IMG/VR virus record: IMGVR_UViG_3300014137_000003
DNA: 64,000 nt
Reading direction: 5' to 3' (one strand)
Source: a virus
Shown: one piece after another, positions 7,230 through 55,393 of the stretch
Layout: each line of letters begins with the position of its first letter
Numbering within the stretch: position 1 is the stretch's first letter
Notes under the pieces: generated by a model
Told to the model about the DNA's origin: nothing
Databases searched by the model: none
Seen by the model: the letters and a program-made list of their open reading frames with translations, nothing else
Program-made: the position numbers and the translations under genes

Positions 7230-7823
7230 ATGAGTAAACAGTATTTAATTGTTAGTGAGCAGGTAGGTAGTTTCCTAGAGAATAAGTCCTACAAAACTCC
7301 TCGTGAAAAGGTTGCCTTTATGGCATCCATATATGAGGCTGAGAGGCGTGCTGAAGACCCTCTCGTTCTGAGCGATGGGGATTACGATATTATTATGCGT
7401 ATCCTAAACGGTGAGGAGTTCGTAGTTGATACAGGTAAATTTTATATCAATGTAGGAGCACCTATTAATCGTGAGGAGTTCTTGTGTACGGTAGAGGTTA
7501 CTTATGATGCTGAAGGTAACCGTCTAATTGAGTGGGGCTTAGATACTCTCGATAATGCCTTCCTCTTTAGGGAACAGGATTGGGAAACTCTTGTACCTGA
7601 AGGGTATCGTAGTGATATCTTTAAGGTTATGGAACGTCTTGCTTATTTGAGGAAGGAAGAGAAGGAAGAAAGTTTCTCTCCATTTAATCCTCCTGTTGTA
7701 GAAGAAGCAGACAATGAAGTAATTTCGTATGAGGAAGGCACTTCAGACGAAGATAGCAGTGAGAACACTCATCTTAGTGAGGAAGGAACTACCTCTCTTT
7801 TAAACCAGGAAATAATCCTTTAA
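7230..7823 (+). CDS. hypothetical protein, acidic C-terminus
   Basis: 197-aa ORF with an acidic, Ser-rich tail. Confidence 0.65.
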   Translation: MSKQYLIVSEQVGSFLENKSYKTPREKVAFMASIYEAERRAEDPLVLSDGDYDIIMRILNGEEFVVDTGKFYINVGAPINREEFLCTVEVTYDAEGNRLIEWGLDTLDNAFLFREQDWETLVPEGYRSDIFKVMERLAYLRKEEKEESFSPFNPPVVEEADNEVISYEEGTSDEDSSENTHLSEEGTTSLLNQEIIL

Positions 7824-10856: not shown

Positions 10857-11522
10857 ATGCATAAAGAAAAGAAAATCCAGTACTCAAATTATAAGTATAG
10901 AGCTTATAAAAAGTTGAATAAGTTGTTCCTAGATAAACTTAAACAGCTTGGTATTACAGGGACTGAATCTGTTCTTCTAGATTTCCAGATAGAGTACTAT
11001 ATACCCAGTAATAGATATCGTGTTGTAGTATTTTATGGAGAAAGGGGTATTATTTGTACAATACCTTATACGGACTCCGATGAATATACAATTAGTATAG
11101 AAATAGGTAGAGGGGGATGTTGTTATGTAGGAAATAACTTCTCTAATAAAATGGAATCTTATCTAAAGGAGTTAATCAAATATAAGTTGCCAGATACTGT
11201 TGAGATTGTTAGGTTTTATGCAAATAACAATCAGATTTCTTATAGTTATATGACTAGGAGCTATATAGAACTTGAAAGAGGTAGGTCGGGGTATCCAGAA
11301 AAAGATAAGCCGAAACACTTAAAGCACGATTTTTCTAGTAAAATGGTCTCTTACCTAAAACAGCTACTAAAATATAAACTGCAAGAAAATGTTGAATATT
11401 TCTATTTTTATGCAGATTATTTTCGTATTGACTATAATAGTAAAGATAAAAACTGTGAGATTATTGAAAATGCTAGGTCAGGTCAACCAGAGAAAGGTGG
11501 GTTTAGCTTTTATATGGGGTAG
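10857..11522 (+). CDS. paralog-family protein (KxYxxYKxEAYxxL N-terminus, duplicated C-domain)
   Basis: N-terminus KIQYSNYKYRAYKKLNKL. An internal repeat (KMESYLKELIKYKLPDTVE / KMVSYLKQLLKYKLQENVE) ends each time in RSGYPEK / RSGQPEK. Confidence 0.7.
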   Translation: MHKEKKIQYSNYKYRAYKKLNKLFLDKLKQLGITGTESVLLDFQIEYYIPSNRYRVVVFYGERGIICTIPYTDSDEYTISIEIGRGGCCYVGNNFSNKMESYLKELIKYKLPDTVEIVRFYANNNQISYSYMTRSYIELERGRSGYPEKDKPKHLKHDFSSKMVSYLKQLLKYKLQENVEYFYFYADYFRIDYNSKDKNCEIIENARSGQPEKGGFSFYMG

Positions 11523-24448: not shown

Positions 24449-24830
24449 GGGGTCGTCTTGGATTCGACAGGCGACTGAGATTAAGAACTTCACTCCGAGT
24501 GGTGACGTAATCACCAAACTTAAATATAACTGCAAACACAGTTCAACCTGTTGAGATGGCAGCCTAACAAGTCTCCCTCGACTTGTATGTCTGTCTAATC
24601 AACACAAGTAAATTACCGATTAAGGTGAGCGACTATCTGTAAGTAACGGTGCAGTGGTAGCTATAAACCACGTTACTCGCTAGAAGGGGTATCTCAGCCC
24701 TCTAGTTAAATACGAGATATAGCTTTAGGGTTTGTGCATTTACCTAAGGTCGAATGTTTAAATGTAGCAGAGTGCTATAGAGTTTTTAGTTGAGGTTGTT
24801 TGGACGTGGGTTCGAAACCCACCGGCTCCA
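24449..24830 (+). ncRNA. ssrA: tmRNA (SsrA), tag ANTVQPVEMAA
   Basis: The 5' end GGGGTCGTCTTGGATTCGACAGG and 3' end GGACGTGGGTTCGAAACCCACCGGCTCCA form an alanine-type acceptor with G3:U70. The tag ORF (GCAAACACAGTTCAACCTGTTGAGATGGCAGCCTAA) spans 24532-24567. Confidence 0.9.
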
Positions 24831-41888: not shown

Positions 41889-42131
41889 ATGGCTACGAGT
41901 AACCCATATCGAGTATTAGGTGTTAGTCCTAGTACGTCTTACGAAGAGGCTAAGCGTATCTATCGTAGGAAGGTTAAGAACCTCCACCCCGATTTAGGGG
42001 GCGACGCTAAGTTGATGATGGAAGTCAAGGAGGCTTGGGATTATCTCAATGCTAATCGAGATACTATGCTTGGTCAAACTAGCTCAGTCGGGGTAACCCA
42101 CAAATCACTTTTTGAAATTTTAGATAAATAG
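41889..42131 (+). CDS. J-domain (DnaJ-like) co-chaperone
   Basis: NPYRVLGVSPSTSYEEAKRIYRRKVKNLHPDLGGD contains the HPD motif. Confidence 0.85.
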   Translation: MATSNPYRVLGVSPSTSYEEAKRIYRRKVKNLHPDLGGDAKLMMEVKEAWDYLNANRDTMLGQTSSVGVTHKSLFEILDK

Positions 42132-44524: not shown

Positions 44525-44959
44525 ATGCTATTAGTTAAGAATAGGAAGGCTTATCATGATTACTCTGTACTCCGTACCTTGGAGTGTGGGGTTGTTTTGG
44601 TAGGTAGTGAAGTTAAATCGCTAAAGGCTCATCACGGAGTCCTCAAAGGTTCTTGGGGGTATATTTCTAACGAAGAAGTGTTCTTAAAGGGGGTACACAT
44701 TCCGAAATGGGGTACGTCTGTTTGGAACCATGAAGAAGAAAGAGACCGTAAATTACTCCTACATAAAAAGGAAATTAAGGGTTTAGCGAAAGACTTGTCT
44801 CTTGGCGATGGGTTAACTCTTGTACCTTTAGAGCTTAAAGTTGTAAAAGGTCGAATAAAGTGCACTCTTGGCTTGTGTAAAGGTAAGAAAAACTATGATA
44901 AGCGTCAAGCTCTGAAAGAAAGAGACATCAAACGTAGTCTAGAAAGGTTAGTTAGGTAG
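44525..44959 (+). CDS. smpB: SmpB (tmRNA-binding protein)
   Basis: NRKAYHDYSVLRTLECGVVLVGSEVKSLK, RDRKLLLHKKEI and GLCKGKKNYDKRQALKERD align with E. coli SmpB (NKRARHEY...GWEVKSLR, RTRKLLL, GVAKGKKQHDKRSDIKERE). Confidence 0.9.
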   Translation: MLLVKNRKAYHDYSVLRTLECGVVLVGSEVKSLKAHHGVLKGSWGYISNEEVFLKGVHIPKWGTSVWNHEEERDRKLLLHKKEIKGLAKDLSLGDGLTLVPLELKVVKGRIKCTLGLCKGKKNYDKRQALKERDIKRSLERLVR

Positions 44960-45662: not shown

Positions 45663-45941
45663 ATGGTAACTAAAAAGGATATTGTTTCCGAAGTATCGGC
45701 AGAGCTTGGTATTACGAAGGTGGAAGCTAATCGAACTTTTGATACAATCTTTAAGACAATTATGGATTACGTTTCTGATGGTGAAAAGGTACAAATCAAG
45801 GATTTCGGTAATTGGGAAGCTCGTTATCGTTCTGCTCGTAATGGTCGAAACCCACAAAATGGGGCACCGATTCGTATTGAAGAACGTCTTACTCCTGTAT
45901 TTAAGCCAGGAAAAGCCTTTAAAGAACAAGTTAATAAGTAG
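45663..45941 (+). CDS. hup: HU/IHF-family DNA-binding protein (TF1-like)
   Basis: DIVSEVSAELGITKVEANRTFDTIF...FGNWEARYRSARNGRNPQNGAPIRIEERLTPVFKPGKAFKEQV matches the HU signature (GFG.F..R.R.AR.GRNP.TGE.I.I......F.PGK.LK). Confidence 0.9.
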   Translation: MVTKKDIVSEVSAELGITKVEANRTFDTIFKTIMDYVSDGEKVQIKDFGNWEARYRSARNGRNPQNGAPIRIEERLTPVFKPGKAFKEQVNK

Positions 45942-46057: not shown

Positions 46058-46121
46058 TTCTACTAGTTAAGGCTAGTGGAAGACTGACTTTCTGCTGAAG
46101 TCGATGGTAACTCCTTAGTAT

Positions 46122-46147
46122 CCAGTGCAGAGGTGCACTGGTTTTTT
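46122..46147 (+). terminator. rho-independent terminator
   Basis: CCAGTGCA-GAGG-TGCACTGG followed by TTTTTT. Confidence 0.85.
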
Positions 46148-46149
46148 AG

Positions 46150-46410
46150 TTTAATTATACAGAAATTATTTTATATCTTTAGGTATTAACTATTTAGGAG
46201 GTAGGTTTTATACTTAGTGTAATCTCTTGTAGTTTAGTATTAGATTGTTATTATTTCTTTTTAGGAATTACTTTAGTATCTTAGTATAATCTATCTTATT
46301 CTTGTTTACTTTTTAGTAGTTCTTTCCTATTAGATTTCTTTTCTTTCTATATTAAATCCTTTTGTATTCTCCTTATATATTACTAGCCTATTTAGGAATT
46401 GCTTTATTAT
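46150..46410. other. AT-rich, T-skewed non-coding tract (candidate DNA-unwinding region)
   Basis: About 260 nt with no ORF. It contains two copies of TTAGGAATT(A/G)CTTTA(G/T)TATCTT, at 46261 and 46392. Confidence 0.35.
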
Positions 46411-46413
46411 CTT

Positions 46414-46660
46414 TGTGGTAATTGGGTGTACTTTTGGTAGGATTTGTGGTATTATGGTTAGTGATTTAGATGTGGTATTTTATGTGGTAATCTCGTCCGT
46501 CTTGGGTGGGGGTATCTATTTTAAATCCGTTTTAGGGCTTGTTTGGGGCGTTTTAGCGAATAAAAATATGGGGGTAGGGGGTGTATGTCCTTGCTTGCGT
46601 ATTGTGGTTTTGTGGCTCGAAAATAGCGTGTATTTGTGGGTTTATTGTGGGTTATTATTG
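46414..46660 (+). repeat. G+T-rich tract with TGTGGTAWT / TGTGG iterons
   Basis: TGTGGTAAT at 46414 and 46483, TGTGGTATT at 46445 and 46471, and further TTGTGG copies at 46603-46655. There is almost no C or A on the + strand. Confidence 0.55.
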
Positions 46661-46719
46661 CTTATTAATCTACTATATCTATTTGTACTTAGTTGAATAT
46701 AGGAATTAGGAGTCAAAAT

Positions 46720-47337
46720 ATGGCTAACTTTTTTAGAACCTTAGATACTTCTATTAAAGATTGCTCTAGTAGTGGAGATGTTGCATCTTTGGCTATCCTA
46801 GAACGATTGAAGATGTATTTAAGTACTGGTAACTTTAGCTCTTATAGTAGGGCAAAGGAACTTATTTCTGTTAATGGCTTATCGTGGAAGGAAGCTAGTT
46901 ATGTACTAAAAATAAAGCCCGACACGGTGAAACGTGCAAGATATGCTTTGTCGGAAGAGGTTTGGAATATTGTAGGAAAAGACTTTTTCGACCGTCTTAA
47001 GGAAGGGGACTTAGCTTATTGTGATTCTATCGTTGAGTCTCTCCACGTGGAGGAGATTGTTTCCCCTATCCCTTTAGATGTTTCTAAGCTTATTAGGTCT
47101 TTGGCTAGTGAGGAAGACCTTAATAGTATAGGTAGCGTAACCGAGTTGTCTGCCTATTCGAAGGAGTTGGACTTTCTAGTTGGGATTAGCGAACCTATGG
47201 TTAGGGCAAAGGTATCTAACCTAGATATTGGTAGGCTCTTAGCATTACTAGGCATTTTGGATGGAAGCCTTGGTAATCCTCATATTAGGGTGGCGATTAA
47301 CGAACATATTCTAGGGAAAGCAGGAGATTTATTATGA
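46720..47337 (+). CDS. hypothetical protein, possible HTH/sigma-region-4-like regulator
   Basis: The start is moved to the ATG after AGGAG. The segment SWKEASYVLKIKPDTVKRARYALSEEV looks like a helix-turn-helix. Confidence 0.5.
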   Translation: MANFFRTLDTSIKDCSSSGDVASLAILERLKMYLSTGNFSSYSRAKELISVNGLSWKEASYVLKIKPDTVKRARYALSEEVWNIVGKDFFDRLKEGDLAYCDSIVESLHVEEIVSPIPLDVSKLIRSLASEEDLNSIGSVTELSAYSKELDFLVGISEPMVRAKVSNLDIGRLLALLGILDGSLGNPHIRVAINEHILGKAGDLL

Positions 47338-48548
47338 TTCATATTAGTGAACTATATAAAAAGGATTATTTTGAGACTGTAAGTGAATATCGTTTCGCTT
47401 TATCATTTGCTATGGAGTGTGCTAGACGTGGCGATATCCTCTCGGTAGATGGGGTACGCAGTCAGGCAGACTTGAATTCTCGTGTGCATGCAGGCTACAA
47501 AAATTATCTAATGGATAATAATTTAGTTGTAGGATTTAGTAGCAAAGAAGAAGACATCTACCCTTACGAAGAACAGAATTACTCTTTCCTTAGTAAAGAT
47601 AATCTTTTTGAAGACAACGGTGAGTATCTCTATTGGGATATGGACTGGGGCTTGGAAGTGTTAGGTAGACTCTTCTATAAGCACGCAGGGGTAGGTGATA
47701 TTCCTTACTTGTTGGAGTTCCTAGTAGCTCGTCATCTCTACGATGTCCTAACTGGGAAAGAAACTCGCAAACTCTATATTAAGTTAACTATGCAACTATC
47801 TTCTACTTTCTCTAGCTATTTGGACTTGGTTTCTCTTTATAATTCTTGTCCTAACCTAGCAGAGTATGTAGAGATTGTACTGCATGAGCGTTCTTCTGTA
47901 GACCTTAAACTTTCCTTATTTAAGTATGATTCTAATAACTTAGGATTTAATAAGGAGTATACGGTGGAGGAGAAAATGAACTTCTTACAACTAAATAGGT
48001 TTACCGAAGGTATGGTACTTATTCTCTTTGATAGAAAGGGTATTAACACTTCTAATGACTTGGGAAGTATCGAGATGGCTCATTTAGTTCGTCTTGATGA
48101 AGTTGTAGACGGTAAGCTTTACCTAACCCAGTTAAGGGGTACTCGAACCTATGAGGAGACTGCTAAAGACTTCCTCATGATTCCCGAAAAGAACCGTGCA
48201 CTTTATTATGACTTATTAGATAAGTCTGATTCTGTCCATGGTTCTATGGTAGTAGACTTACGAGAGTGTGGGGTAGGAAGTCGATTTTACCGTGAGAAAC
48301 ACTTGTTAGATTCTATCTCAACTACGGATATGGTTCGTAAGTTAGTTTCTAACAATGGGAAAATCTTTGAACAAGAGATGACTGAAGCTGAAGCTATCTT
48401 CTATACCCTTATGCAAAACGACGCTCCTATAGACGCTGATTTATATAGAGATTATTATTTTGGTGGCGGAGAAGCTATTTGGGATTCCCTAGACCATGAT
48501 GGTTTTAACTCTCCTTATGACTTTATTAAGGATGAGCTTAATTTCTAG
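47334..48548 (+). CDS. hypothetical protein
   Basis: 404-aa ORF overlapping the upstream stop by 4 nt. Confidence 0.65.
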   Translation: MIHISELYKKDYFETVSEYRFALSFAMECARRGDILSVDGVRSQADLNSRVHAGYKNYLMDNNLVVGFSSKEEDIYPYEEQNYSFLSKDNLFEDNGEYLYWDMDWGLEVLGRLFYKHAGVGDIPYLLEFLVARHLYDVLTGKETRKLYIKLTMQLSSTFSSYLDLVSLYNSCPNLAEYVEIVLHERSSVDLKLSLFKYDSNNLGFNKEYTVEEKMNFLQLNRFTEGMVLILFDRKGINTSNDLGSIEMAHLVRLDEVVDGKLYLTQLRGTRTYEETAKDFLMIPEKNRALYYDLLDKSDSVHGSMVVDLRECGVGSRFYREKHLLDSISTTDMVRKLVSNNGKIFEQEMTEAEAIFYTLMQNDAPIDADLYRDYYFGGGEAIWDSLDHDGFNSPYDFIKDELNF

Positions 48549-48561
48549 TTTAAGTTTAGAT

Positions 48562-48715
48562 TTCCGAATACTTTATTAGGTTTTCCGAAAATATTTTTAG
48601 TTTTCTGAAATATAGGTTATGTTTTCCGAAAGTTATTTTATGTTTTCCGAAAGTTGGTTTATACTTTCTGATTTTTAGTTCCAGTAGGCTGAAAGTTTGT
48701 ATTCAGTCTTCCGAA
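48562..48715 (+). repeat. array of 8 TTTTCCGAAA-type iterons with about 21-bp phasing
   Basis: TTCCGAA or TTCTGAA cores start at 48562, 48583, 48603, 48624, 48645, 48666, 48687 (degenerate) and 48709. Confidence 0.8.
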
Positions 48716-48750
48716 ACTAATTAGTTAGAATTATGAAAGAATGGTGAGTT

Positions 48751-50889
48751 ATGGCAGATTTATTAAAAGACCTAGAAAACTTTACTTCGAATTTGGAAGA
48801 GGTAAAACCAAAGAAGGAAGTAGTTGGTACAGGTTATGTAAAGAAAAAGGACACTGCTAGTGAGCGGTTCCTAGAACGTGTCACGGAAAAGGGGTACGAC
48901 TTAACTGAGCTTGAAGGAGCCCTTAAGACTTGGGGCAACCAGTTGGTTCTATCTTGTGCAGGAAGTGGTAAAACTACTTTTACAGTAATGAAAATTTTGT
49001 ATGGAACTCGTACTGGTAAGTTAACTCAAAAGGTAGAAGTTAATGGAAATACTGTACGAACTATGGCACGGATTTGGGTTTCTACCTTTTTGAATAGTGG
49101 TGCTAGGGAGTTGGAGTACGAAGTAGCCAAGTGGAATAAGAAAATGGGGTATGTTGATACTTCTAAATCAATAAAGTTTTCCACTATCCATGCAGAGTTT
49201 AAGTCTGTATTGAATGCTTGTGGTATTAGCACTAGCTTTATCGATGCTAAGGCTAACACTACTGCTCTACGCAACATCGTAAAACGATTTGGAGTAAGAG
49301 CTAATGGTAAGTTCCTTAATTCTGAACAGTTGTCTGATTTAGAGGGTGCATTGACTTATACTCGTAATAAACTTGATGGTAAACGTTATACCCACCAAGT
49401 TTATACTGACCTAGGTCTTACCTCAATTGAGATTGATGCTATTCTAAATGATTGGTATAAGGCACGTAAGGCAGCTGGCAAAATGGACTTTGAGGACTTG
49501 CAAGATATCCTCTATAACAAGTTGTTTGTAGAGGAAGACCAGAACATTATTGATTGTGTTTCAGACCGTTATGACTTCTTGTTTATTGACGAATTCCAAG
49601 ATACTTCCCAAAAGCAGTATGCTATCTTAAAAGTTTATATGCAGTATGCTAAGCAAACGGTAGTTGTAGGTGATGACGACCAAACTATCTACTCTTGGAG
49701 GGGTAGTGACCATAAGATTATTACTGAGACATTTATTAATGACTTTAGTCCTAAAATCTCTAAGCTCTCTACTAACTATCGATGCCCAGCAAATATTGTA
49801 AACGCTATTGTTCCTAGTATTGAACGCAATACTGAACGTTTAGAGAAGTCTATTAAGGCAAGCAAAGAAGGTGGGGAGGTTCGTCTTGGGGTATTCCCAT
49901 CTTACAATGCTATGGTTAAGAAATTGAATGAATTGGTTTATCAAGATATTTCAGACCGTATGAATGTAGCTATTATCTGTCGTGAGAATAGTGATGGGTT
50001 GTTGCCAGCTATGATGCTAGATAGGGATGGAAGGTTCTCTTTTAGTATTAGTGGGGAGGGTATGTCCCTAAACTCTTACATGGTTCAGCAAGCTAAGAAT
50101 GTTGTACGTTTGGTTAGCGAGAAAGCTACAAATGGTGTTGCATCTGCTCTTAAACAACTAACTTACTCTACTTGGGAAGTTGATTCTCTTATGTCAGCAC
50201 TTAAGAATAGTGGGGAAAGTATTTGGAATGTTCCTATGGACGAAGTTTCTTATTCTTGTCCTAGTCTATCAGGTATTCTCTCTGAGTGGAGAAATGTTTA
50301 CAGGGGTGTAACAGAAGGTAAGATGTCTGAAATGGGTTTGTTGGAATATCTTCTTTCTTACTATCATAACTTTGTTTATGAGAAGGAAAACACTTACAAC
50401 ATGAGAATGCGTTCTATCCTATCTTCTTTTGTAGTGCTTGTTAGGTCTGATGGTTTTGAATCTGCGTCTGAGTTCCTTTATGAGCTGAACGAAATGAATT
50501 TACGTTTACAAAGCCGAGTGAAGCTGAATAACGTAGATATTCGGATTGTTACTGTACACGAATTTAAAGGTAAGGAAGTAGATTCGGGGTATCTTTGGAA
50601 TGACTCTGTTGATGTCTTTCCTCATAAAAAGGCTGAAACTCAAGAAGAGCTTGAAGAAGAAAGGCGTAACCACTATATTGGTTGTACACGTCCTAAGAAA
50701 CGTTTGACCCTTATGACTATCCAAGGTAAGGAGGGTATGTTTATCTCGGAGATGGACTTATCTAACGCAATCCGTGTAGATAGTGTTTCTGGTATTAAAG
50801 GTTCATTAAAAGGTAAAGAAGATAGCGAAGAAGCTAGGAATAGACGTAGGCTTTTGGGAGAGTCAGCGGGTGTAGGTTTTGAAGAATAA
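48751..50889 (+). CDS. UvrD/Rep/PcrA-type SF1 helicase
   Basis: Helicase motifs CAGSGKT (I), FIDEFQDTS (II), VGDDDQTIYSWRG (III), TNYRC (IV), VHEFKGKE (V) and IGCTRPKKRL (VI). Confidence 0.9.
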   Translation: MADLLKDLENFTSNLEEVKPKKEVVGTGYVKKKDTASERFLERVTEKGYDLTELEGALKTWGNQLVLSCAGSGKTTFTVMKILYGTRTGKLTQKVEVNGNTVRTMARIWVSTFLNSGARELEYEVAKWNKKMGYVDTSKSIKFSTIHAEFKSVLNACGISTSFIDAKANTTALRNIVKRFGVRANGKFLNSEQLSDLEGALTYTRNKLDGKRYTHQVYTDLGLTSIEIDAILNDWYKARKAAGKMDFEDLQDILYNKLFVEEDQNIIDCVSDRYDFLFIDEFQDTSQKQYAILKVYMQYAKQTVVVGDDDQTIYSWRGSDHKIITETFINDFSPKISKLSTNYRCPANIVNAIVPSIERNTERLEKSIKASKEGGEVRLGVFPSYNAMVKKLNELVYQDISDRMNVAIICRENSDGLLPAMMLDRDGRFSFSISGEGMSLNSYMVQQAKNVVRLVSEKATNGVASALKQLTYSTWEVDSLMSALKNSGESIWNVPMDEVSYSCPSLSGILSEWRNVYRGVTEGKMSEMGLLEYLLSYYHNFVYEKENTYNMRMRSILSSFVVLVRSDGFESASEFLYELNEMNLRLQSRVKLNNVDIRIVTVHEFKGKEVDSGYLWNDSVDVFPHKKAETQEELEEERRNHYIGCTRPKKRLTLMTIQGKEGMFISEMDLSNAIRVDSVSGIKGSLKGKEDSEEARNRRRLLGESAGVGFEE

Positions 50890-50895
50890 TTAGTT

Positions 50896-50944
50896 TTCCG
50901 AAAGTATTTTTTAGGTTTCCGATTTCGAATTTTAGAAGTCCGAA
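50896..50944 (+). repeat. 3 further TTCCGAA-type iterons, 21-bp phased
   Basis: Cores at 50896, 50917 and 50938, immediately downstream of the helicase stop. Confidence 0.7.
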
Positions 50945-50986
50945 GCCTTTTCGACTATAAGTAGGATTGTTTTTATGTTTATTTTA

Positions 50987-50995
50987 TGTTAAGAT
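50987..50995 (+). promoter_or_regulatory. extended -10 promoter (TGTTAAGAT + CTAGTAT)
   Basis: Upstream of 51024. Confidence 0.5.
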
Positions 50996-51023: not shown

Positions 51024-51908
51024 ATGTACTTTAAAGGAAGTCGTGTAACTTTAGAATCTATTAGTTCTCAGTTTAGGGGGTATTCCTTGGACATACAGGA
51101 CGAGGTTCGTTCTATGGTTATGGATAACTTAGATTTGTCTAAGTGGATAGACGTTTGTAAGGATAACCCTTACCGTCTATATCAGATTAGGTTAGGAAGT
51201 AAGGAGGGATTGGACCCTCGGTTCTTCACTATCCTAGATGGTTCTGTAATTTATAGGATTCGTAGCTTGGCAGCTACTGGTTTTAATGTGGGAGAGTTGC
51301 TCTCTTATGTAGGTGTGGGCTTTACTAAGGAGCAGTGGTTTTATATTATCTCTTGGGCAGAGCGTGGCTTGTTAGACTTTAGGTTAGCCCTTGTAAGGAC
51401 TCCTTTCTCTATGTGGGGTTTCATTGATAAGGGTCTTAGGAATAACTTGCCTATGTGGTTGTTCACTAGTGGTAAGAAATACAGTGACACCTTTATGCAT
51501 AGTGTTCTTACTTTGATGTCTAATGGGCAGTCTGCCGAGACATTCTTAAATTATCCGTGGAATGATAAAACATTAAAATTATTGGCAGAATTCTCTTACC
51601 GTAGATGGTTTAATAATATAGTAGGCTTGGTAGATTATTTTATCCCTTACGATTTTTTAGTCTCTGTAGGGGAGTTAGCTAAAGAAGGTTTAATTGATAA
51701 AGATTTATTTAAGACTGGTTATGATGGAGATACTGGAAGCTGTTATTATCTATATCAGTCATATCATTTAGAAGCTATCTTGCGTTGTGTCATGCAGGGG
51801 TATGATTATAGCAAGTTAAAGGATTATAACCTTTCAGGTTCAGAGGTAGACACTATCTTGAAAGAGATAGAGTTAAACTCTAAGCGTTCTTTCCGAGGTA
51901 GATTGTAA
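51024..51908 (+). CDS. hypothetical protein
   Basis: 294-aa ORF. Confidence 0.65.
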   Translation: MYFKGSRVTLESISSQFRGYSLDIQDEVRSMVMDNLDLSKWIDVCKDNPYRLYQIRLGSKEGLDPRFFTILDGSVIYRIRSLAATGFNVGELLSYVGVGFTKEQWFYIISWAERGLLDFRLALVRTPFSMWGFIDKGLRNNLPMWLFTSGKKYSDTFMHSVLTLMSNGQSAETFLNYPWNDKTLKLLAEFSYRRWFNNIVGLVDYFIPYDFLVSVGELAKEGLIDKDLFKTGYDGDTGSCYYLYQSYHLEAILRCVMQGYDYSKLKDYNLSGSEVDTILKEIELNSKRSFRGRL

Positions 51909-53721: not shown

Positions 53722-53847
53722 CCCTTTGTTAGATTTATTTATATCTGCTCTAGTAATCTCCGAATATAGGAATTTTAAGTTAGGTAAATATGTTTTTAGA
53801 GTAGTTACTACTAAAACTTAAGTTCCTTTTACTTAAAGTTCAGGGTT

Positions 53848-54096: not shown

Positions 54097-54130
54097 AGGT
54101 TCCAGGGCTTAAAGTCACTGGACCTTTTTT
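54097..54130 (+). terminator. rho-independent terminator
   Basis: AGGTTCCAG / CTGGACCT stem (one bulge) followed by TTTTTT. Confidence 0.7.
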
Positions 54131-54138
54131 AGCTATTT

Positions 54139-54147
54139 TGGTAAAAT
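54139..54147 (+). promoter_or_regulatory. extended -10 promoter (TGGTAAAAT)
   Basis: Upstream of the actin-like gene. Confidence 0.6.
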
Positions 54148-54235
54148 AGAAGTTAAAGAGTTTATATTTTGATTTCTGAGAGTTAGAGTATAGACTTCTA
54201 AAAGTAGTAGTATCTACATAATGGAGGAATTAATT

Positions 54236-55393
54236 ATGCGTGAAGTAAATGCAACCCTTATTGTCGACTTAGGTAATAGCGAGACAAGGGTTATGGTTCA
54301 GTCAGGTCTTGGTAGGAACGGTTTGGTACGCCAGCGTATGTCTTTGGTAAGCAATAAATATGCGTCCTTACGAGAGGGGTACGAAGTTCCAGAAACTTAC
54401 ACAGAAGAGAACTCATCTATTCTAAGAACTAAGGATGGAGAGTTGTTTGCAAATGGATTGCTTGTAGAACGTGAGTTTTCGGTAGCACCTTTACGTCCAA
54501 CAAACTTGGAGAAAAAGCACGAAAGTAAGGTAACTATGATTACAATTCAACGTGCTTTCTTAGAGGGGTATAAATTGCTCTCTCAAATGTACCGAACATC
54601 TATGTCAAACCTTGACGTTACTTGGAAGGTAGTTTATTTGCTACCACCAAATGATATTTCTGAGGGTGCTAAGGTACTGTACGAAAAGATTGTAGGTCTT
54701 AAAACTCTTGAGTTTGTATTGCCTGAGTTTTCTGTTGATTTAAAAATCGAGGGTGCTAAAGTTTACCCAGAAGGGTTTGCAGCCTATATTGGAACTCTTA
54801 TGCGTAAAGGTAAAACTATCAATGAAGAGTTTAAAGGTTTGCTTGAATCAACAACCCTTATTGTTGACATCGGTGCAGGAACTACGGACTTCTTCGTGGT
54901 AGAGGGGATGGACACCATTGACTCTACTAAATCAACAATTCAAATTGGGGGTAACAACGTAACAGCATCTCTACGTCAACGAATGGCGAGTGCAGGTCTT
55001 AGTCTAACTGATAAGGTTATTGAGAAAGGTGTTCGCACTGGATATGTGAAAGATGGTGCTAAAACAATCAAAGTTGTTAAGGCTTTGGTGGCAGCAAAAC
55101 AGGACACTGCAAGCGTTCTTTTGGGTTCCATTATCTCTTATTTGGAAAGTGCTAACTATAACATTCGTACCATTGAAAATCTCCTTGTAGTTGGAGGTGG
55201 TAGTATCCCTAGTGATATCGAGGGTGTTAAGTCTCTGTCTGAGTATGTAGTAGAACGCTTAAAAGATTTTGCTCCTAACATTCAGTTGGTAAACTTGCCT
55301 AAAGAATATAAAGGTGAAGATACTACTGGTGGGGAGTTGAATCCTCGATTGTTAAACATTCTAGGTGCAGGGGTACTAGCAGAAATGGGGTAA
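54236..55393 (+). CDS. actin-like ATPase (ParM/Alp family)
   Basis: Phosphate-1 motif LIVDLGNSETRV, phosphate-2 motif LIVDIGAGTTDF and adenosine motif LLVVGGGS. The start is at the ATG after GGAGGA. Confidence 0.8.
   Translation: MREVNATLIVDLGNSETRVMVQSGLGRNGLVRQRMSLVSNKYASLREGYEVPETYTEENSSILRTKDGELFANGLLVEREFSVAPLRPTNLEKKHESKVTMITIQRAFLEGYKLLSQMYRTSMSNLDVTWKVVYLLPPNDISEGAKVLYEKIVGLKTLEFVLPEFSVDLKIEGAKVYPEGFAAYIGTLMRKGKTINEEFKGLLESTTLIVDIGAGTTDFFVVEGMDTIDSTKSTIQIGGNNVTASLRQRMASAGLSLTDKVIEKGVRTGYVKDGAKTIKVVKALVAAKQDTASVLLGSIISYLESANYNIRTIENLLVVGGGSIPSDIEGVKSLSEYVVERLKDFAPNIQLVNLPKEYKGEDTTGGELNPRLLNILGAGVLAEMG

What the first reader, a model, noticed from the sequence alone, without database searches (positions are those of the whole stretch)
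48562..50944. 21-bp-phased TTTTCCGAAA iterons bracket the UvrD-like helicase gene
Upstream of the helicase gene, eight copies of (G)TTTTCCGAAA(G)T (core TTCCGAA or TTCTGAA) start at 48562, 48583, 48603, 48624, 48645, 48666, 48687 (degenerate) and 48709. The spacing is 20-22 bp, or two helical turns, which places all sites on one face of the DNA.

Three more copies with the same 21-bp phasing (50896, 50917, 50938) follow the helicase stop codon. A single similar site (CTCCGAAT) lies at 53757-53764, ahead of the next promoter.

Such phased iterons are typical of replication origins or of cooperative repressor or activator binding. Their position on both sides of a helicase gene, just downstream of the GT-rich and AT-rich tract at 46.15-46.7 kb, makes an origin or replisome-loading function plausible.
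Basis: seen in the sequence. Interest (0 to 1): 0.65.

Follow-up and report, generated by a model that had tools for sequence, protein, structure and literature searches.

The report
Phased protein-binding repeat array before helicase
A uncultured ~180-kb phage carries eight same-direction copies of a 13-bp motif spaced exactly two DNA turns apart in front of its helicase gene; relatives keep the array but change the motif, so it is almost certainly a docking platform for a phage DNA-binding protein, though its role (gene control, replication start or DNA segregation) is unresolved.

Summary
Window 48556-48722 holds eight oriented units (TAGnTTTCYGAAA) at 20-22 bp spacing, and three more lie at 50889-50951. 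No other 160-bp stretch of the window approaches this lag-21 self-similarity (0.61 against 0.29 +/- 0.045).

The array is the local form of a family-wide feature. Relatives with 88-64% and 47% helicase identity carry a clear 21-bp-phased array between the orphan ~405-aa gene and the UvrD-like helicase, and so does the 35% clade. The 60% relative (L128) has only a weak one. The motif differs by lineage: TTCYGAAA, TTTAGAAA or TGATGTCAT.

In the window's clade the same motif also sits just downstream of the sigma70-type -10 of the actin-like (ParM-like) gene, and in some relatives of the 294-aa gene. In the 60% relative a different motif (TTTAGAAC) occurs at both the helicase and actin-like loci.

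My best reading is a phage-encoded, co-evolving protein coating one DNA face as an operator array for the helicase/actin-like genes, possibly doubling as centromere or origin. The candidate binder is the 205-aa sigma4/LuxR-type HTH protein.

Origin function is neither shown nor excluded: there is no skew switch, DnaA-box cluster or recognisable initiator. "Bracketing" of the helicase holds only in the closest relatives, and the 53758 site is not conserved.

The parts
48556..48722 (+). Main array. Eight oriented ~21-bp units with consensus TTtAGnTTTC(C/T)GAAAgt. Units start at about 48556, 48577, 48597, 48618, 48639, 48660, 48681 (degenerate) and 48703. The array fills the gap between the stop of the 404-aa gene (48548) and the helicase start (48751).
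   Evidence: All three + strand frames contain stops, so it is non-coding.
48726..48731 (+). Putative -10 hexamer TAGAAT of a weak helicase promoter. It lies 8 bp after the last unit, so that unit occupies the -35 region. The position is inferred, not mapped.
   Evidence: Sequence read. The geometry motif-8 bp-TAGAAT/TAGAAG is kept in L122, L130 and L129.
50889..50951 (+). Second array of three units: TTAGTTTTCCGAAAG, TTAGGTTTCCGATTT and TTAGAAGTCCGAAGC. It starts at the helicase stop codon.
   Evidence: Conserved in L001 and L122 only.
50967..50995 (+). Predicted promoter of the 294-aa gene, TTGTTT-17 bp-TAAGAT preceded by TG (extended -10). It lies downstream of the three-unit array.
   Evidence: Read from the sequence. 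It was not listed by the consensus scan, because the combined hexamer match is below that scan's threshold.
54139..54147 (+). Extended -10 (TGGTAAAAT) of the predicted promoter of the actin-like gene. A terminator-like hairpin precedes it.
   Evidence: (54119-54147, TG present). The layout is conserved in 11 lineages.
54168..54184 (+). Conserved single copy of the motif (TTTGATTTCTGAGAGTT), about 20-30 nt downstream of the -10 of the actin-like gene.
54191..54204 (+). Variant unit TAGACTTCTAAAAG, 22 bp after the previous one. It is part of a TTAGAnnTCTAA-like palindrome that is conserved in relatives.
46720..47337 (+). 205-aa protein, first gene of the operon, and the candidate array binder. 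It has a sigma-70 region 4 / LuxR(GerE)-type helix-turn-helix at residues ~48-75.
   Evidence: sub-threshold Pfam hits in several orthologues; GerE best E 2.8e-5. One search shows it is the fastest-evolving neighbour and that the recognition helix tracks the motif clade. Structure evidence is weak.
47334..48548 (+). 404-aa orphan protein, found immediately upstream of the array, or with one small ORF between (L127), in every lineage. It is an alternative candidate binder or initiator.
   Evidence: Searches give no annotation. It forms 88 clusters in 1.8 billion representatives, mostly of about 400 aa. Synteny. hhalign to the L222 counterpart gives E 1.7e-4.
48751..50889 (+). UvrD/PcrA-like SF1 helicase, 712 aa.
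   Evidence: PF00580 E 1e-30, PF13361 E 1e-19; phrog_1967.
51024..51908 (+). 294-aa all-alpha helical-repeat protein of unknown function. In several lineages its gene is preceded by motif copies.
   Evidence: pLDDT 90.9. Searches give no significant structural match; the best natural PDB hit is a TALE protein at E 0.6.
54221..55393 (+). Actin-like (ParM/MreB-like) protein, followed by a 567-aa coiled-coil protein.
   Evidence: PF21522 E 3.7e-11; phrog_691, partition protein, E 4e-19.

Best explanation
The array is a cis-acting DNA platform for a phage-encoded, sequence-specific DNA-binding protein.

The sites are oriented ~13-bp units (TAG-N3-TTCYGAAA) repeated head-to-tail every 21 bp. That is two turns of B-DNA, so bound proteins line up on one face and can contact each other. 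The result would be an extended nucleoprotein complex about 170 bp long. It would cover the whole gap between the orphan 404-aa gene and the UvrD-like helicase gene, including the -35 region of the helicase's weak promoter.

The same protein would also bind one or two phased units placed just downstream of sigma70-type -10 elements in the leader of the actin-like gene. In several relatives it would do the same at the 294-aa gene.

The most likely primary role is therefore a cooperative operator array. It would time or repress the helicase and actin-like genes, and in some lineages the 294-aa gene. It would do so by occluding the helicase promoter and by blocking read-through from the upstream operon. 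This is how centromere-binding global regulators of plasmids work (omega of pSM19035, ParR, AlpA of prophage CGP3). Like them, the array may double as the attachment site for the actin-like segregation system, or as a replication origin.

The best candidate binder is the 205-aa sigma4/LuxR-type HTH protein encoded two genes upstream.

Shown here:
- The array, its phasing and its orientation.
- Its conservation, with motif turnover between lineages.
- The shared motif at other loci.

Inferred only:
- That it acts on DNA rather than RNA.
- The identity of the binder.
- The promoter positions.
- The repressive direction of regulation.
For: 1. The array is non-random and unique in the window. It is absent from a further 30 kb of the same genome.

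2. Selection acts on cores and on register, not on spacers.
- The 97% twin differs only in spacers.
- In seven lineages with 88-64% helicase identity, information content is concentrated in TAG and TTCYGA, and spacers are near zero.
- Spacings stay at 20-22 bp or multiples of that.

3. Architecture is shared across the family while the motif is lineage-specific.
- L127 (47% identity) has six TAGAA units exactly 21 bp apart at the same position.
- L222 and L223 (35% identity, 48% GC) have 7-8 TGATGTCAT units at 21 bp, and this motif occurs nowhere else on that strand in 18 kb.
- Self-identity at lag 21-22 or 42-43 ranks among the four highest lags in all 10 lineages first examined.
- L128 (60% identity) has only a weak array, and L126's periodicity is partly coding.

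4. The motif is shared with other promoters.
- A copy lies 18-45 nt after the extended -10 of the actin-like gene in most of 11 lineages; it is degenerate in L124/L216/L217 and L219. L128 carries its own motif there instead.
- Copies lie between the -10 and the ribosome-binding site of the 294-aa or helicase genes in L123, L124, L125 and L129, and in L127 with its own motif.

5. The two loci co-vary. In L128 the 8-mer TTTAGAAC occurs four times in 14 kb: two upstream of the helicase and two upstream of the actin-like gene. This argues for a phage-encoded factor rather than a host factor.

6. Candidate binder.
- Orthologues of the 205-aa protein hit Sigma70_r4, Sigma70_r4_2 and GerE HTH models.
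- It is the fastest-evolving neighbour, at 38-41% identity where the helicase is at about 72%.
- Its recognition helix (T/S)VKRxR is invariant within the TTCYGAAA clade and differs outside it.

7. In L222 a terminator-like hairpin precedes the main array, placing the array in promoter DNA rather than in a read-through transcript.

8. Precedents from the literature.
- Omega binds arrays of 7-10 repeats overlapping three promoters, and these arrays are also the centromeres (PMC9499535).
- AlpA of prophage CGP3 binds repeated alpS sites in the promoter of its actin-like operon (PMC5539076).
Against: - No binding, transcription-start or expression data exist. All promoters are consensus predictions, and the scan finds no more promoter-like sites than shuffled sequence does.
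- Eight to ten sites is more than most operators need and is typical of origins and centromeres.
- In the window the three-unit array lies upstream of the 294-aa gene's promoter, not over it.
- In the 35% clade no copy of the array motif was found at the actin-like gene. The regulon pattern is therefore shown only for the window's clade and L128.
- The HTH assignment rests on sub-threshold Pfam hits and a mediocre model (pLDDT 62) with no significant Foldseek match.
- The HTH gene's own upstream region has no motif copy.
- All sites lie on the transcribed strand in the sense orientation, so an RNA-level role is not excluded.
Confidence: 0.45

Rival explanations
1. Iteron-type replication origin. 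The array would be bound by a phage initiator, either the orphan 404-aa protein or the 205-aa HTH protein, or both. The initiator would melt nearby DNA and load a helicase, as in lambda O/ori or the P1/F RepA-iteron origins. The extra copies near other promoters would be secondary regulatory sites of the initiator.
For: - Six to ten direct repeats at a two-turn (21 bp) spacing is the classical iteron layout.
- Lineage-specific motifs with conserved architecture are what initiator-iteron co-evolution gives.
- The array adjoins the same two orphan genes (one extra small ORF in L127) and a helicase, and a RecJ-like gene follows.
- In the window, a second cluster after the gene recalls P1 incC/incA. 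This comparison is from my own knowledge.
- No DNA polymerase or other replication gene was recognised in the parts of the ~84 kb that were annotated (about 42-64 kb of the window and 10 kb beyond it). The phage may therefore depend on recruiting host enzymes.
Against: - GC skew is +0.11 to +0.28 in every 2-kb bin of the window, with no switch at 48.6 kb. This is a weak argument, because all genes are on one strand.
- There is no DnaA-box cluster.
- No distinct AT-rich unwinding element adjoins the array. The array is 27.7% GC, and the lowest-GC DNA (21-22%) is at 46.14-46.4 kb.
- No neighbour matches any Rep, O, DnaD or replisome-organiser family.
- The bracketed gene is an SF1 UvrD-like helicase, not a known initiator.
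- Conserved motif copies in the leaders of other genes are unusual for pure iterons.
- The array shrinks to 3-5 dispersed units in some relatives.
Confidence: 0.25
2. Centromere (parC/alpS-like) of the actin-like segregation system. An adaptor protein would coat the arrays and couple phage DNA to ParM-like filaments, and the copies in the leader of the actin-like gene would give autoregulation.
For: - The actin-like gene and a following coiled-coil gene are found in nearly every lineage examined that carries an array, down to 35% helicase identity. None was seen in the L221 locus.
- The array motif is present in the actin-like gene's leader in the window's clade (degenerate in a few members) and co-varies with it in L128.
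- Known type II centromeres, and alpS of prophage CGP3, are short direct repeats bound cooperatively. They also regulate the operon (PMC5539076; titles).
Against: - The main array is 5.5 kb from the actin-like gene, whereas parC and alpS sit directly at the operon promoter.
- No ParR-like ribbon-helix-helix or other small DNA-binding gene flanks the actin-like gene. The neighbours are a 65-aa membrane protein and a 567-aa coiled-coil protein.
- No motif copy was found at the actin-like gene in the 35% clade.
- There is no evidence that this phage is maintained as a plasmid: no related element was found in 185,579 species genomes.
Confidence: 0.15
3. RNA-level element. The units would be read in the mRNA, in the intercistronic region and the 5' leaders, by an RNA-binding protein that controls translation or stability of the helicase, 294-aa and actin-like messages. 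One possible reader is the 294-aa helical-repeat protein, acting autogenously.
For: - Every copy is in the sense orientation on the transcribed strand. The centre base is a pyrimidine in 41 of 45 cases.
- Single copies lie between predicted -10 elements and ribosome-binding sites, which places them in leaders.
- No terminator separates the 404-aa gene from the array in the window.
- The 294-aa gene is itself preceded by copies.
- Its product is a confident helical-repeat fold of unknown function.
Against: - The 21.0-bp period equals two turns of B-DNA in lineages with unrelated motifs. RNA recognition gives no reason for this.
- There is no significant RNA structure (z = -1.6) and no Rfam match.
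- In L222 a terminator-like hairpin precedes the array.
- The L222 clade has the array but no 294-aa gene between the helicase and the DHH-domain (RecJ-like) gene.
- The TALE similarity is not significant (E 0.6, TM 0.28).
Confidence: 0.07
4. Binding sites of a host global regulator. Candidates are CodY of Firmicutes (box AATTTTCWGAAAATT) or XerS (the difSL left arm contains TTTCCGAAA). Either would couple phage gene expression or recombination to host state.
For: - The core TTTC-N-GAAA is shared with the CodY box. This comparison is from my own knowledge.
- The unit at 48599 has only 3 mismatches out of 15 to that box.
- The difSL sequence ATCTTTCCGAAAAACTGTAATTTTCTTGACA contains the core (PMC2965235).
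- Strong Shine-Dalgarno sites and extended -10 promoters suggest a Gram-positive host.
Against: - Most units have 4-5 mismatches to the CodY box, two of the downstream units have 8, and their centre base is C or T rather than A or T.
- No site in the window comes within 9 mismatches of the full difSL.
- The motif changes with phage lineage, and does so in concert at two loci. This is not expected for one conserved host factor.
Confidence: 0.04
5. A functionless tandem duplication (minisatellite) in an intergenic spacer.
For: - Tandem 21-bp units can arise by slippage.
- L122 differs from the window by a 42-bp (two-unit) insertion.
Against: - Cores are conserved while spacers have diverged.
- The register is maintained down to 64% helicase identity.
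- Arrays with other motifs occupy the same place in distant clades.
- The motif is reused at unlinked promoters.
Confidence: 0.03

Closest known systems
Omega (RHH ParB) and parS heptad arrays of plasmid pSM19035
   Same: Arrays of 7-10 contiguous non-palindromic short repeats overlap the promoters of several operons (replication control, partition and the regulator itself). One protein binds them cooperatively and acts both as global repressor and as centromere-binding protein (PMC9499535). In the phage, one motif likewise occurs as a long array at a replication-type gene and as short arrays at the partition-type (actin-like) gene.
   Different: - The omega repeat is 7 bp and contiguous, in mixed orientation. 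Here the units are ~13 bp on a 21-bp pitch and all face one way.
- Omega's partner ATPase is a Walker ParA, not an actin-like protein.
- No ribbon-helix-helix protein was found here; the candidate binder is an HTH protein.
- Binding was not tested.
AlpA/AlpC/alpS of Corynebacterium glutamicum prophage CGP3, and ParR/ParM/parC of plasmids
   Same: A phage or plasmid actin-like ATPase is paired with a repeated DNA site bound by an adaptor. In these systems the site lies in the operon's promoter region. In CGP3 the system is needed for efficient phage DNA replication (PMC5539076).
   Different: - alpS (TTAAnnG) and parC lie directly upstream of the actin-like operon. Here only 1-2 units do, and the 8-unit array is 5.5 kb away, in front of the helicase.
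- No adaptor gene was recognised next to the actin-like gene.
Iteron origins (lambda ori/O protein; P1 and F plasmid replicons)
   Same: Four to nine direct repeats of ~19 bp lie about two helical turns apart. Their sequence is lineage-specific and co-evolves with the initiator. In P1 and F, clusters lie on both sides of a gene. This comparison is from my own knowledge.
   Different: - The flanked gene is an SF1 UvrD-like helicase, not a Rep initiator.
- No Rep, O or DnaA-box, AT-rich element or skew signature was found.
- Motif copies in the leaders of other genes are not a feature of those origins.
CodY box of low-GC Gram-positive bacteria
   Same: Both share a TTTC-N-GAAA core inside an A/T-rich context.
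   Different: - The units have 3-5 mismatches out of 15 (8 in two of the downstream units), the wrong centre base and a fixed orientation.
- They have a 21-bp array geometry.
- The motif changes with phage lineage.

Membership tests
Iteron-type replication origin | Three or more direct repeats of ~17-22 bp spaced about two helical turns apart | tested here: met
   Eight units at 20-22 bp. Lag-21 self-identity is 0.61 against 0.29 +/- 0.045.
Iteron-type replication origin | An adjacent gene encodes a recognisable initiator (Rep_3/RepA, lambda O, DnaD-like organiser) that binds the repeats | tested here: not met
   Neither the 404-aa, 205-aa, 294-aa proteins nor the helicase matches an initiator family in Pfam, PHROGs or PDB. 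An unrecognised initiator cannot be excluded.
Iteron-type replication origin | A flanking AT-rich unwinding element and/or DnaA boxes | tested here: not met
   The array is 27.7% GC with no separate AT-rich block. The minimum (21-22% GC) is at 46.14-46.4 kb. DnaA-box matches number 17 against 18 expected, and none is intergenic near the array.
Iteron-type replication origin | Replication initiates at the site | not testable with these tools
   This needs marker-frequency, 2D-gel or autonomous-replication assays. GC skew shows no switch, but it is uninformative with all genes on one strand.
Type II (ParMRC / AlpACS) partition locus | Actin-like ATPase gene present | tested here: met
   The product of 54221-55393 matches PF21522 (E 3.7e-11) and phrog_691, partition protein (E 4e-19).
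Type II (ParMRC / AlpACS) partition locus | The repeat array lies at the promoter of the actin-like operon | tested here: inconclusive
   One canonical and one variant unit, 22 bp apart, lie after the -10 of the actin-like gene, and the canonical copy recurs, sometimes degenerate, in 10 related lineages. The 8-unit array is 5.5 kb upstream.
Type II (ParMRC / AlpACS) partition locus | A small DNA-binding adaptor (ParR/AlpA-like) is co-transcribed with the ATPase | tested here: not met
   The neighbours are a 65-aa hydrophobic protein, a 567-aa coiled-coil protein and a 232-aa protein, none with DNA-binding hits.
Multi-operon operator array of a centromere-binding global regulator (omega type) | The same repeat motif overlaps or adjoins the promoters of two or more operons | tested here: met
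   The motif lies at the helicase, 294-aa and actin-like gene upstream regions. Promoters are predicted only.
Multi-operon operator array of a centromere-binding global regulator (omega type) | Ribbon-helix-helix regulator that binds the repeats | tested here: not met
   No ribbon-helix-helix protein was found. The candidate is a sigma4/LuxR-type HTH protein supported by sub-threshold hits. Binding is untested.
CodY regulon site | 15-bp box AATTTTCWGAAAATT with few mismatches, independent of phage lineage | tested here: not met
   The units have 3-5 mismatches (8 in two of the downstream units) and a C/T centre base. The motif is replaced in concert at two loci in L128, and by other motifs in L127 and L222.
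XerS/difSL recombination site | 31-bp site with two arms around a 6-bp centre | tested here: not met
   Nothing in the window comes within 9 mismatches of difSL. The sequence is taken from PMC2965235.

The most novel reading that the evidence does not exclude
The array could be the origin and segrosome of a previously undescribed phage replication-segregation system.

In this reading an orphan initiator, made of the 404-aa protein with the 205-aa sigma4-like HTH protein, polymerises head-to-tail on 21-bp iterons. It recruits an SF1 UvrD-like helicase instead of a DnaB-type helicase. The same nucleoprotein complex is captured by the phage's actin-like filaments, and single sites provide feedback control of the actin-like gene.

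Such a system would be shared by a large family of 170-260-kb uncultured phages, and its specificity would change by initiator-iteron co-evolution.
Probability: 0.15. Interest if true: 0.8.

Novelty: new variant of a known kind. Interest (0 to 1): 0.5.

Why it matters
Phased direct-repeat arrays are the hallmark of the three cis-acting functions that matter most for an extrachromosomal genome: starting replication, attaching to a segregation motor, and timing gene expression.

This array is deeply conserved, while its motif turns over between lineages. It sits at a fixed place in an abundant but uncultured family of 170-260-kb phages seen only in metagenomes. The family has no cultured relative (helicase under 31% identical to any GenBank phage).

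The array is flanked by two conserved orphan genes and shares its motif with the promoter region of a phage actin-like gene. That gives a concrete handle on three things:
- a DNA fragment of about 200 bp;
- three candidate proteins;
- natural specificity variants for swap experiments.

With these, one can work out how these phages start or organise DNA replication and what their actin-like system does.

If the array turns out to be only an operator, it is still a clean example of rapid regulator-operator co-evolution, with two-turn phasing kept in nearly every lineage examined.

Tried and rejected
- **Close cultured relatives.** Megablast of 46-54 kb against GenBank phages gave nothing. tblastn of the helicase gave at most 31% identity. 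No annotation could be borrowed.
- **Pattern scan of IMG/VR.** Scanning for two TTTCCGAAA copies 20-22 bp apart returned a mixed bag. It included unrelated 20-22-bp tandem arrays that happen to contain the 9-mer (L003, L075, L076, L083, L107, L115; an 11-bp array in L009), coding repeats, and a large family of human-associated contigs with two copies. This is selection by the pattern itself, so it is not evidence of a shared binder.
- **RNA element.** Folding gave z = -1.6, and Rfam found only the tRNA.
- **CodY box and difSL.** Rejected on mismatches and on lineage-specific motif change.
- **DnaA boxes.** At chance level.
- **GC skew.** Flat and positive, so uninformative.
- **Structure route to the binder.**
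  - The 205-aa model is mediocre (pLDDT 62). Foldseek gave nothing below E = 1, only scattered LuxR/FixJ/sigma4/Spo0A hits.
  - The 294-aa model is excellent (pLDDT 90.9) but has no significant match in PDB or BFVD.
  - The 404-aa family (88 clusters) has no Pfam, PHROG or PDB match even with a 43-sequence profile.
- **Prophage or plasmid copies.** A search of 185,579 species genomes found none closer than 29% identity. Host and lifestyle stay unknown.
- **L126 (50% relative).** Its 21-bp TTAGAA periodicity lies in an uncalled 45-codon ORF encoding a Leu-Glu heptad repeat. I do not count it as an array.
- **The 53758 CTCCGAAT site.** Not conserved, and treated as chance.

Full report
**What is in the window**

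All ORFs of 110 aa or more except one lie on the + strand. The window carries a tmRNA and nine tRNA genes. The genome has 37.5% GC.

It is 97% identical to part of a 180,840-bp IMG/VR contig. No cultured phage is related at the DNA level. The helicase is at most 31% identical to any GenBank phage protein.

The gene order around the finding is as follows:
- tape-measure gene;
- DnaJ-like, SmpB and HU-like genes, then a tRNA;
- about 0.65 kb of non-coding DNA (46.06-46.72 kb);
- 205-aa gene;
- 404-aa gene;
- the array;
- UvrD-like helicase (48751-50889);
- a short array;
- 294-aa gene;
- RecJ-like DHH protein;
- 65-aa membrane protein;
- actin-like (ParM-like) protein;
- 567-aa coiled-coil protein.

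**Check of the observation**

Core starts are 48562, 48583, 48603, 48624, 48645, 48666, 48687/8 (degenerate) and 48709, with spacings of 21, 20, 21, 21, 21, 21 and 22 bp. Three more copies lie at 50896, 50917 and 50938, and the last is weak.

- TRF finds this as the only period-21 array in 64 kb.
- TTTCCGAAA with up to one mismatch is twice as frequent as in shuffles, because of these clusters.
- A weight matrix scores 16 or more at only one other place, a site inside a gene.
- It finds no intergenic copy in 30 kb more of the same genome.
- The lag-21 self-identity of 48541-48700 (0.61) is about seven standard deviations above the window mean.
- The array has stop codons in every + frame, so it is not coding.

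**Anatomy of the unit**

Forty-one units from seven lineages give T2, A4, G5, then three weakly constrained bases, then T8, T9, C10, Y11, G12, A13, a14, a15. The spacer positions carry almost no information.

The C, G and A positions of the core were part of the pattern used to collect the sites, so they are invariant by construction. The TAG and the T run were not part of that pattern.

The core looks palindromic (TTTC-N-GAAA), but the sites are oriented. An unbiased count of TTCNGA in the arrays gives a centre base of C 23, T 18, A 3 and G 1. Elsewhere in the window the count is T 36, A 24, C 14 and G 6. A symmetric dimer site would show C and G equally often. These are therefore head-to-tail direct repeats, one per two helical turns.

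**Relatives**

Helicase homologues form a large metagenomic family on contigs of 130-260 kb. I fetched loci at 88, 83, 74, 73, 72, 64, 60, 50 and 47% helicase identity. A profile scan of IMG/VR added loci at 72, 65, 46 and 35%. Synteny of the module is conserved throughout.

In all lineages from 88 to 64% identity the gap between the ~405-aa gene and the helicase carries TTCYGA(A) units. Their spacers have diverged, but their spacing is still 20-22 bp or multiples of it. L122 has two extra units, a 42-bp insertion.

Further out the motif changes but the architecture stays:
- L127 (47%) has TAGAA units at 7810, 7831, 7852, 7873, 7894 and 7915, exactly 21 bp apart.
- L222 and L223 (35%, 48% GC) have 7-8 TGATGTCAT units at 21-bp spacing. 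This motif occurs nowhere else on that strand in 18 kb.
- Their two upstream genes are remote homologues of the 205-aa and 404-aa genes (hhalign E about 1e-4).
- The DHH, actin-like and coiled-coil genes follow the helicase there too.
- Self-identity at lag 21-22 or 42-43 ranks among the four highest lags in all ten lineages tested first.

One caveat applies. In L126 the periodic TTAGAA lies in an uncalled 45-codon heptad-repeat ORF, so it is not counted as an array.

The downstream three-unit cluster is present only in the window, its twin and L122. "Bracketing" the helicase is therefore not a conserved property.

**The same motif elsewhere**

The actin-like gene is preceded in the window and ten relatives (the 60% relative L128 differs; see below) by a terminator-like hairpin and then an extended -10 (TGGTAAAAT, TGGTAGAAT or TATAAAAT). 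A motif copy follows 18-45 nt later, clear in most and degenerate in L124/L216/L217 and L219. It is at window 54168-54184. A variant unit lies about 22 bp further on, then the ribosome-binding site.

In L123, L124, L125 and L129 a copy lies between a -10-like hexamer and the ribosome-binding site of the helicase or the 294-aa gene. L127 has its own motif in that position.

In the window, L122, L130 and L129 the last unit of the main array is followed after 8 bp by TAGAAT or TAGAAG. That puts the unit at the -35 position of a weak promoter.

In L128 (60%) the motif is replaced by TTTAGAAC. Its four copies in 14 kb are two upstream of the helicase and two upstream of the actin-like gene. This concerted change argues that one phage-encoded factor reads both loci.

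**Candidate binders**

*205-aa protein.* It gives sub-threshold hits to Sigma70_r4_2. Among 11 orthologues, 4 hit Sigma70_r4_2, 3 hit Sigma70_r4 and 1 hits GerE (E 2.8e-5). Further orthologues hit GerE and Sigma70_r4.
- It is the fastest-evolving gene of the neighbourhood.
- Its putative recognition helix is (T/S)VKRxR in every member of the TTCYGAAA clade.
- Outside that clade the helix reads VKAKR, VRVHK or IRDRL.
- The AlphaFold model is only moderate, and Foldseek found nothing significant.

*404-aa protein.* It belongs to a narrow family of 88 clusters, mostly of about 400 aa, with no detectable relative of known function.

*294-aa protein.* It folds with high confidence (pLDDT 90.9) into an all-alpha helical repeat without significant structural neighbours. 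The best natural PDB hit is a TALE protein at E 0.6. Its gene is missing between the helicase and the DHH-domain (RecJ-like) gene in the 35% clade, which still has an array.

**Interpretation**

The following points make a DNA-protein assembly site very likely:
- a two-turn phasing kept in lineages with unrelated motifs;
- the head-to-tail orientation of the units;
- conservation of cores but not spacers;
- reuse of the motif at other loci.

Which process it serves cannot be settled in silico.

*Regulation.* The promoter-proximal copies, mostly at or after the predicted -10, favour a repressor or timer role for the helicase, 294-aa and actin-like genes. The long array would act as a cooperative version that also blocks read-through from the 205/404 operon. 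This matches the logic of centromere-binding global regulators. Omega of pSM19035 binds arrays of 7-10 repeats overlapping three promoters, and these arrays are also its centromeres (PMC9499535). AlpA of prophage CGP3 binds repeated alpS sites in the promoter of its actin-like operon and is needed for efficient phage replication (PMC5539076).

*Origin.* This role remains a serious rival because of the iteron-like geometry, the initiator-like co-evolution and the constant pairing with two orphan genes and a helicase. It lacks every accessory signature I could test: skew, DnaA boxes, an AT-rich element and a recognisable initiator.

*Centromere alone.* This is weakened by the 5.5-kb distance from the actin-like gene and by the lack of an adaptor gene.

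*RNA-level role.* This is not excluded, since all copies are in the sense orientation and in transcribed positions. It has no positive support, and it is hard to reconcile with the exact two-turn period and with the terminator preceding the array in L222.

*Host CodY or XerS.* Both are rejected.

**Verdict**

The specific origin or replisome-loading claim is unproven.

This is a new variant of a known kind of element, in an uncharacterised phage family. Interest is moderate and would become high if it proves to be an origin or segrosome with an orphan initiator.

Noticed in passing
window 46060-46720; also L128 1520-2100, L222 5555-5713, L126 13309-14709: A long non-coding tract lies upstream of the 205-aa gene. 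It starts with a very AT-rich part (21-22% GC at 46.14-46.4 kb). A strongly G+T-rich part follows, with few A or C on the + strand and repeated TGTGGT-like words. Similar G+T-rich non-coding tracts occur in relatives, including the 35% clade and a 1.4-kb one in L126. It could be the real origin (for example R-loop prone), a promoter cluster or a non-coding RNA.
   Followed up: partly
window 24449-24830, 44525-44959, 41889-42131, 45663-45941: The phage encodes its own tmRNA (tag ANTVQPVEMAA), an SmpB homologue, a DnaJ-domain protein and an HU-like protein, plus nine tRNAs. That amounts to a complete trans-translation pair carried by a virus.
   Followed up: partly
L126 7671-7808: At the place where other lineages have the array, the 50% relative has an uncalled 45-codon ORF. 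It encodes a Leu-Glu heptad (leucine-zipper-like) peptide whose TTAGAA codons recur every 21 bp. This raises the question of whether the arrays and a coiled-coil micro-ORF are evolutionarily related.
   Followed up: no
window 51024-51908: The 294-aa protein is predicted with pLDDT 90.9 as an all-alpha repeat built of ~26-aa helix-turn units (pattern h10-x-G-[LFY]-[DNS]-x3-[FL]). It has no significant match in PDB or BFVD, so it may be a new helical-repeat fold family.
   Followed up: partly
L122 7833-7916 against window 48618-48660: The 88% relative has a 42-bp (two-unit) insertion, and its units alternate strictly between TTCCGAAAC and TTCTGAAAC. Lag-42 self-identity is as high as or higher than lag-21 in several lineages. 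The functional repeat may therefore be a pair of units (four helical turns).
   Followed up: no
window 54183-54204 and equivalent positions in L122, L129, L125, L218, L219: A conserved near-palindrome, TTAGA-NN-TCTAA (for example TAGACTTCTAA), lies in the leader of the actin-like gene, downstream of the canonical motif copy. It suggests that TTAGA is a separate recognition half-site. TTAG(A) also starts the units in the window's clade, in L127 and in L128.
   Followed up: partly
L211 12516-15916 (about 2-5 kb beyond the window's 3' end in the same phage): A cluster of an FHA-domain protein, a PP2C phosphatase and a Hanks-type Ser/Thr protein kinase. This is a phage-borne phospho-signalling module.
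   Followed up: no
L005, L006, L012, L014, L018, L023 and about 40 other IMG/VR loci: A large family of human-associated viral contigs carries ATTTCCGAAAC-N9-TTTTTCCGAAAC followed by GTTACAGGG...TAATAATGCC. It is often within 200 bp of a contig end. It is unrelated to this phage and may be an attachment or packaging site.
   Followed up: no
L107 2486-2590; L115 1055-1180; L003 (minus strand, around 11205-11273): Unrelated viral contigs have 4-6 perfect tandem units of 20-21 bp that also contain TTTCCGAAA (for example GTGTATTTTTCCGAAAGTTAT x5 in L107, very like the window's unit). I could not tell whether this reflects a widespread binder class or selection by my search pattern.
   Followed up: no
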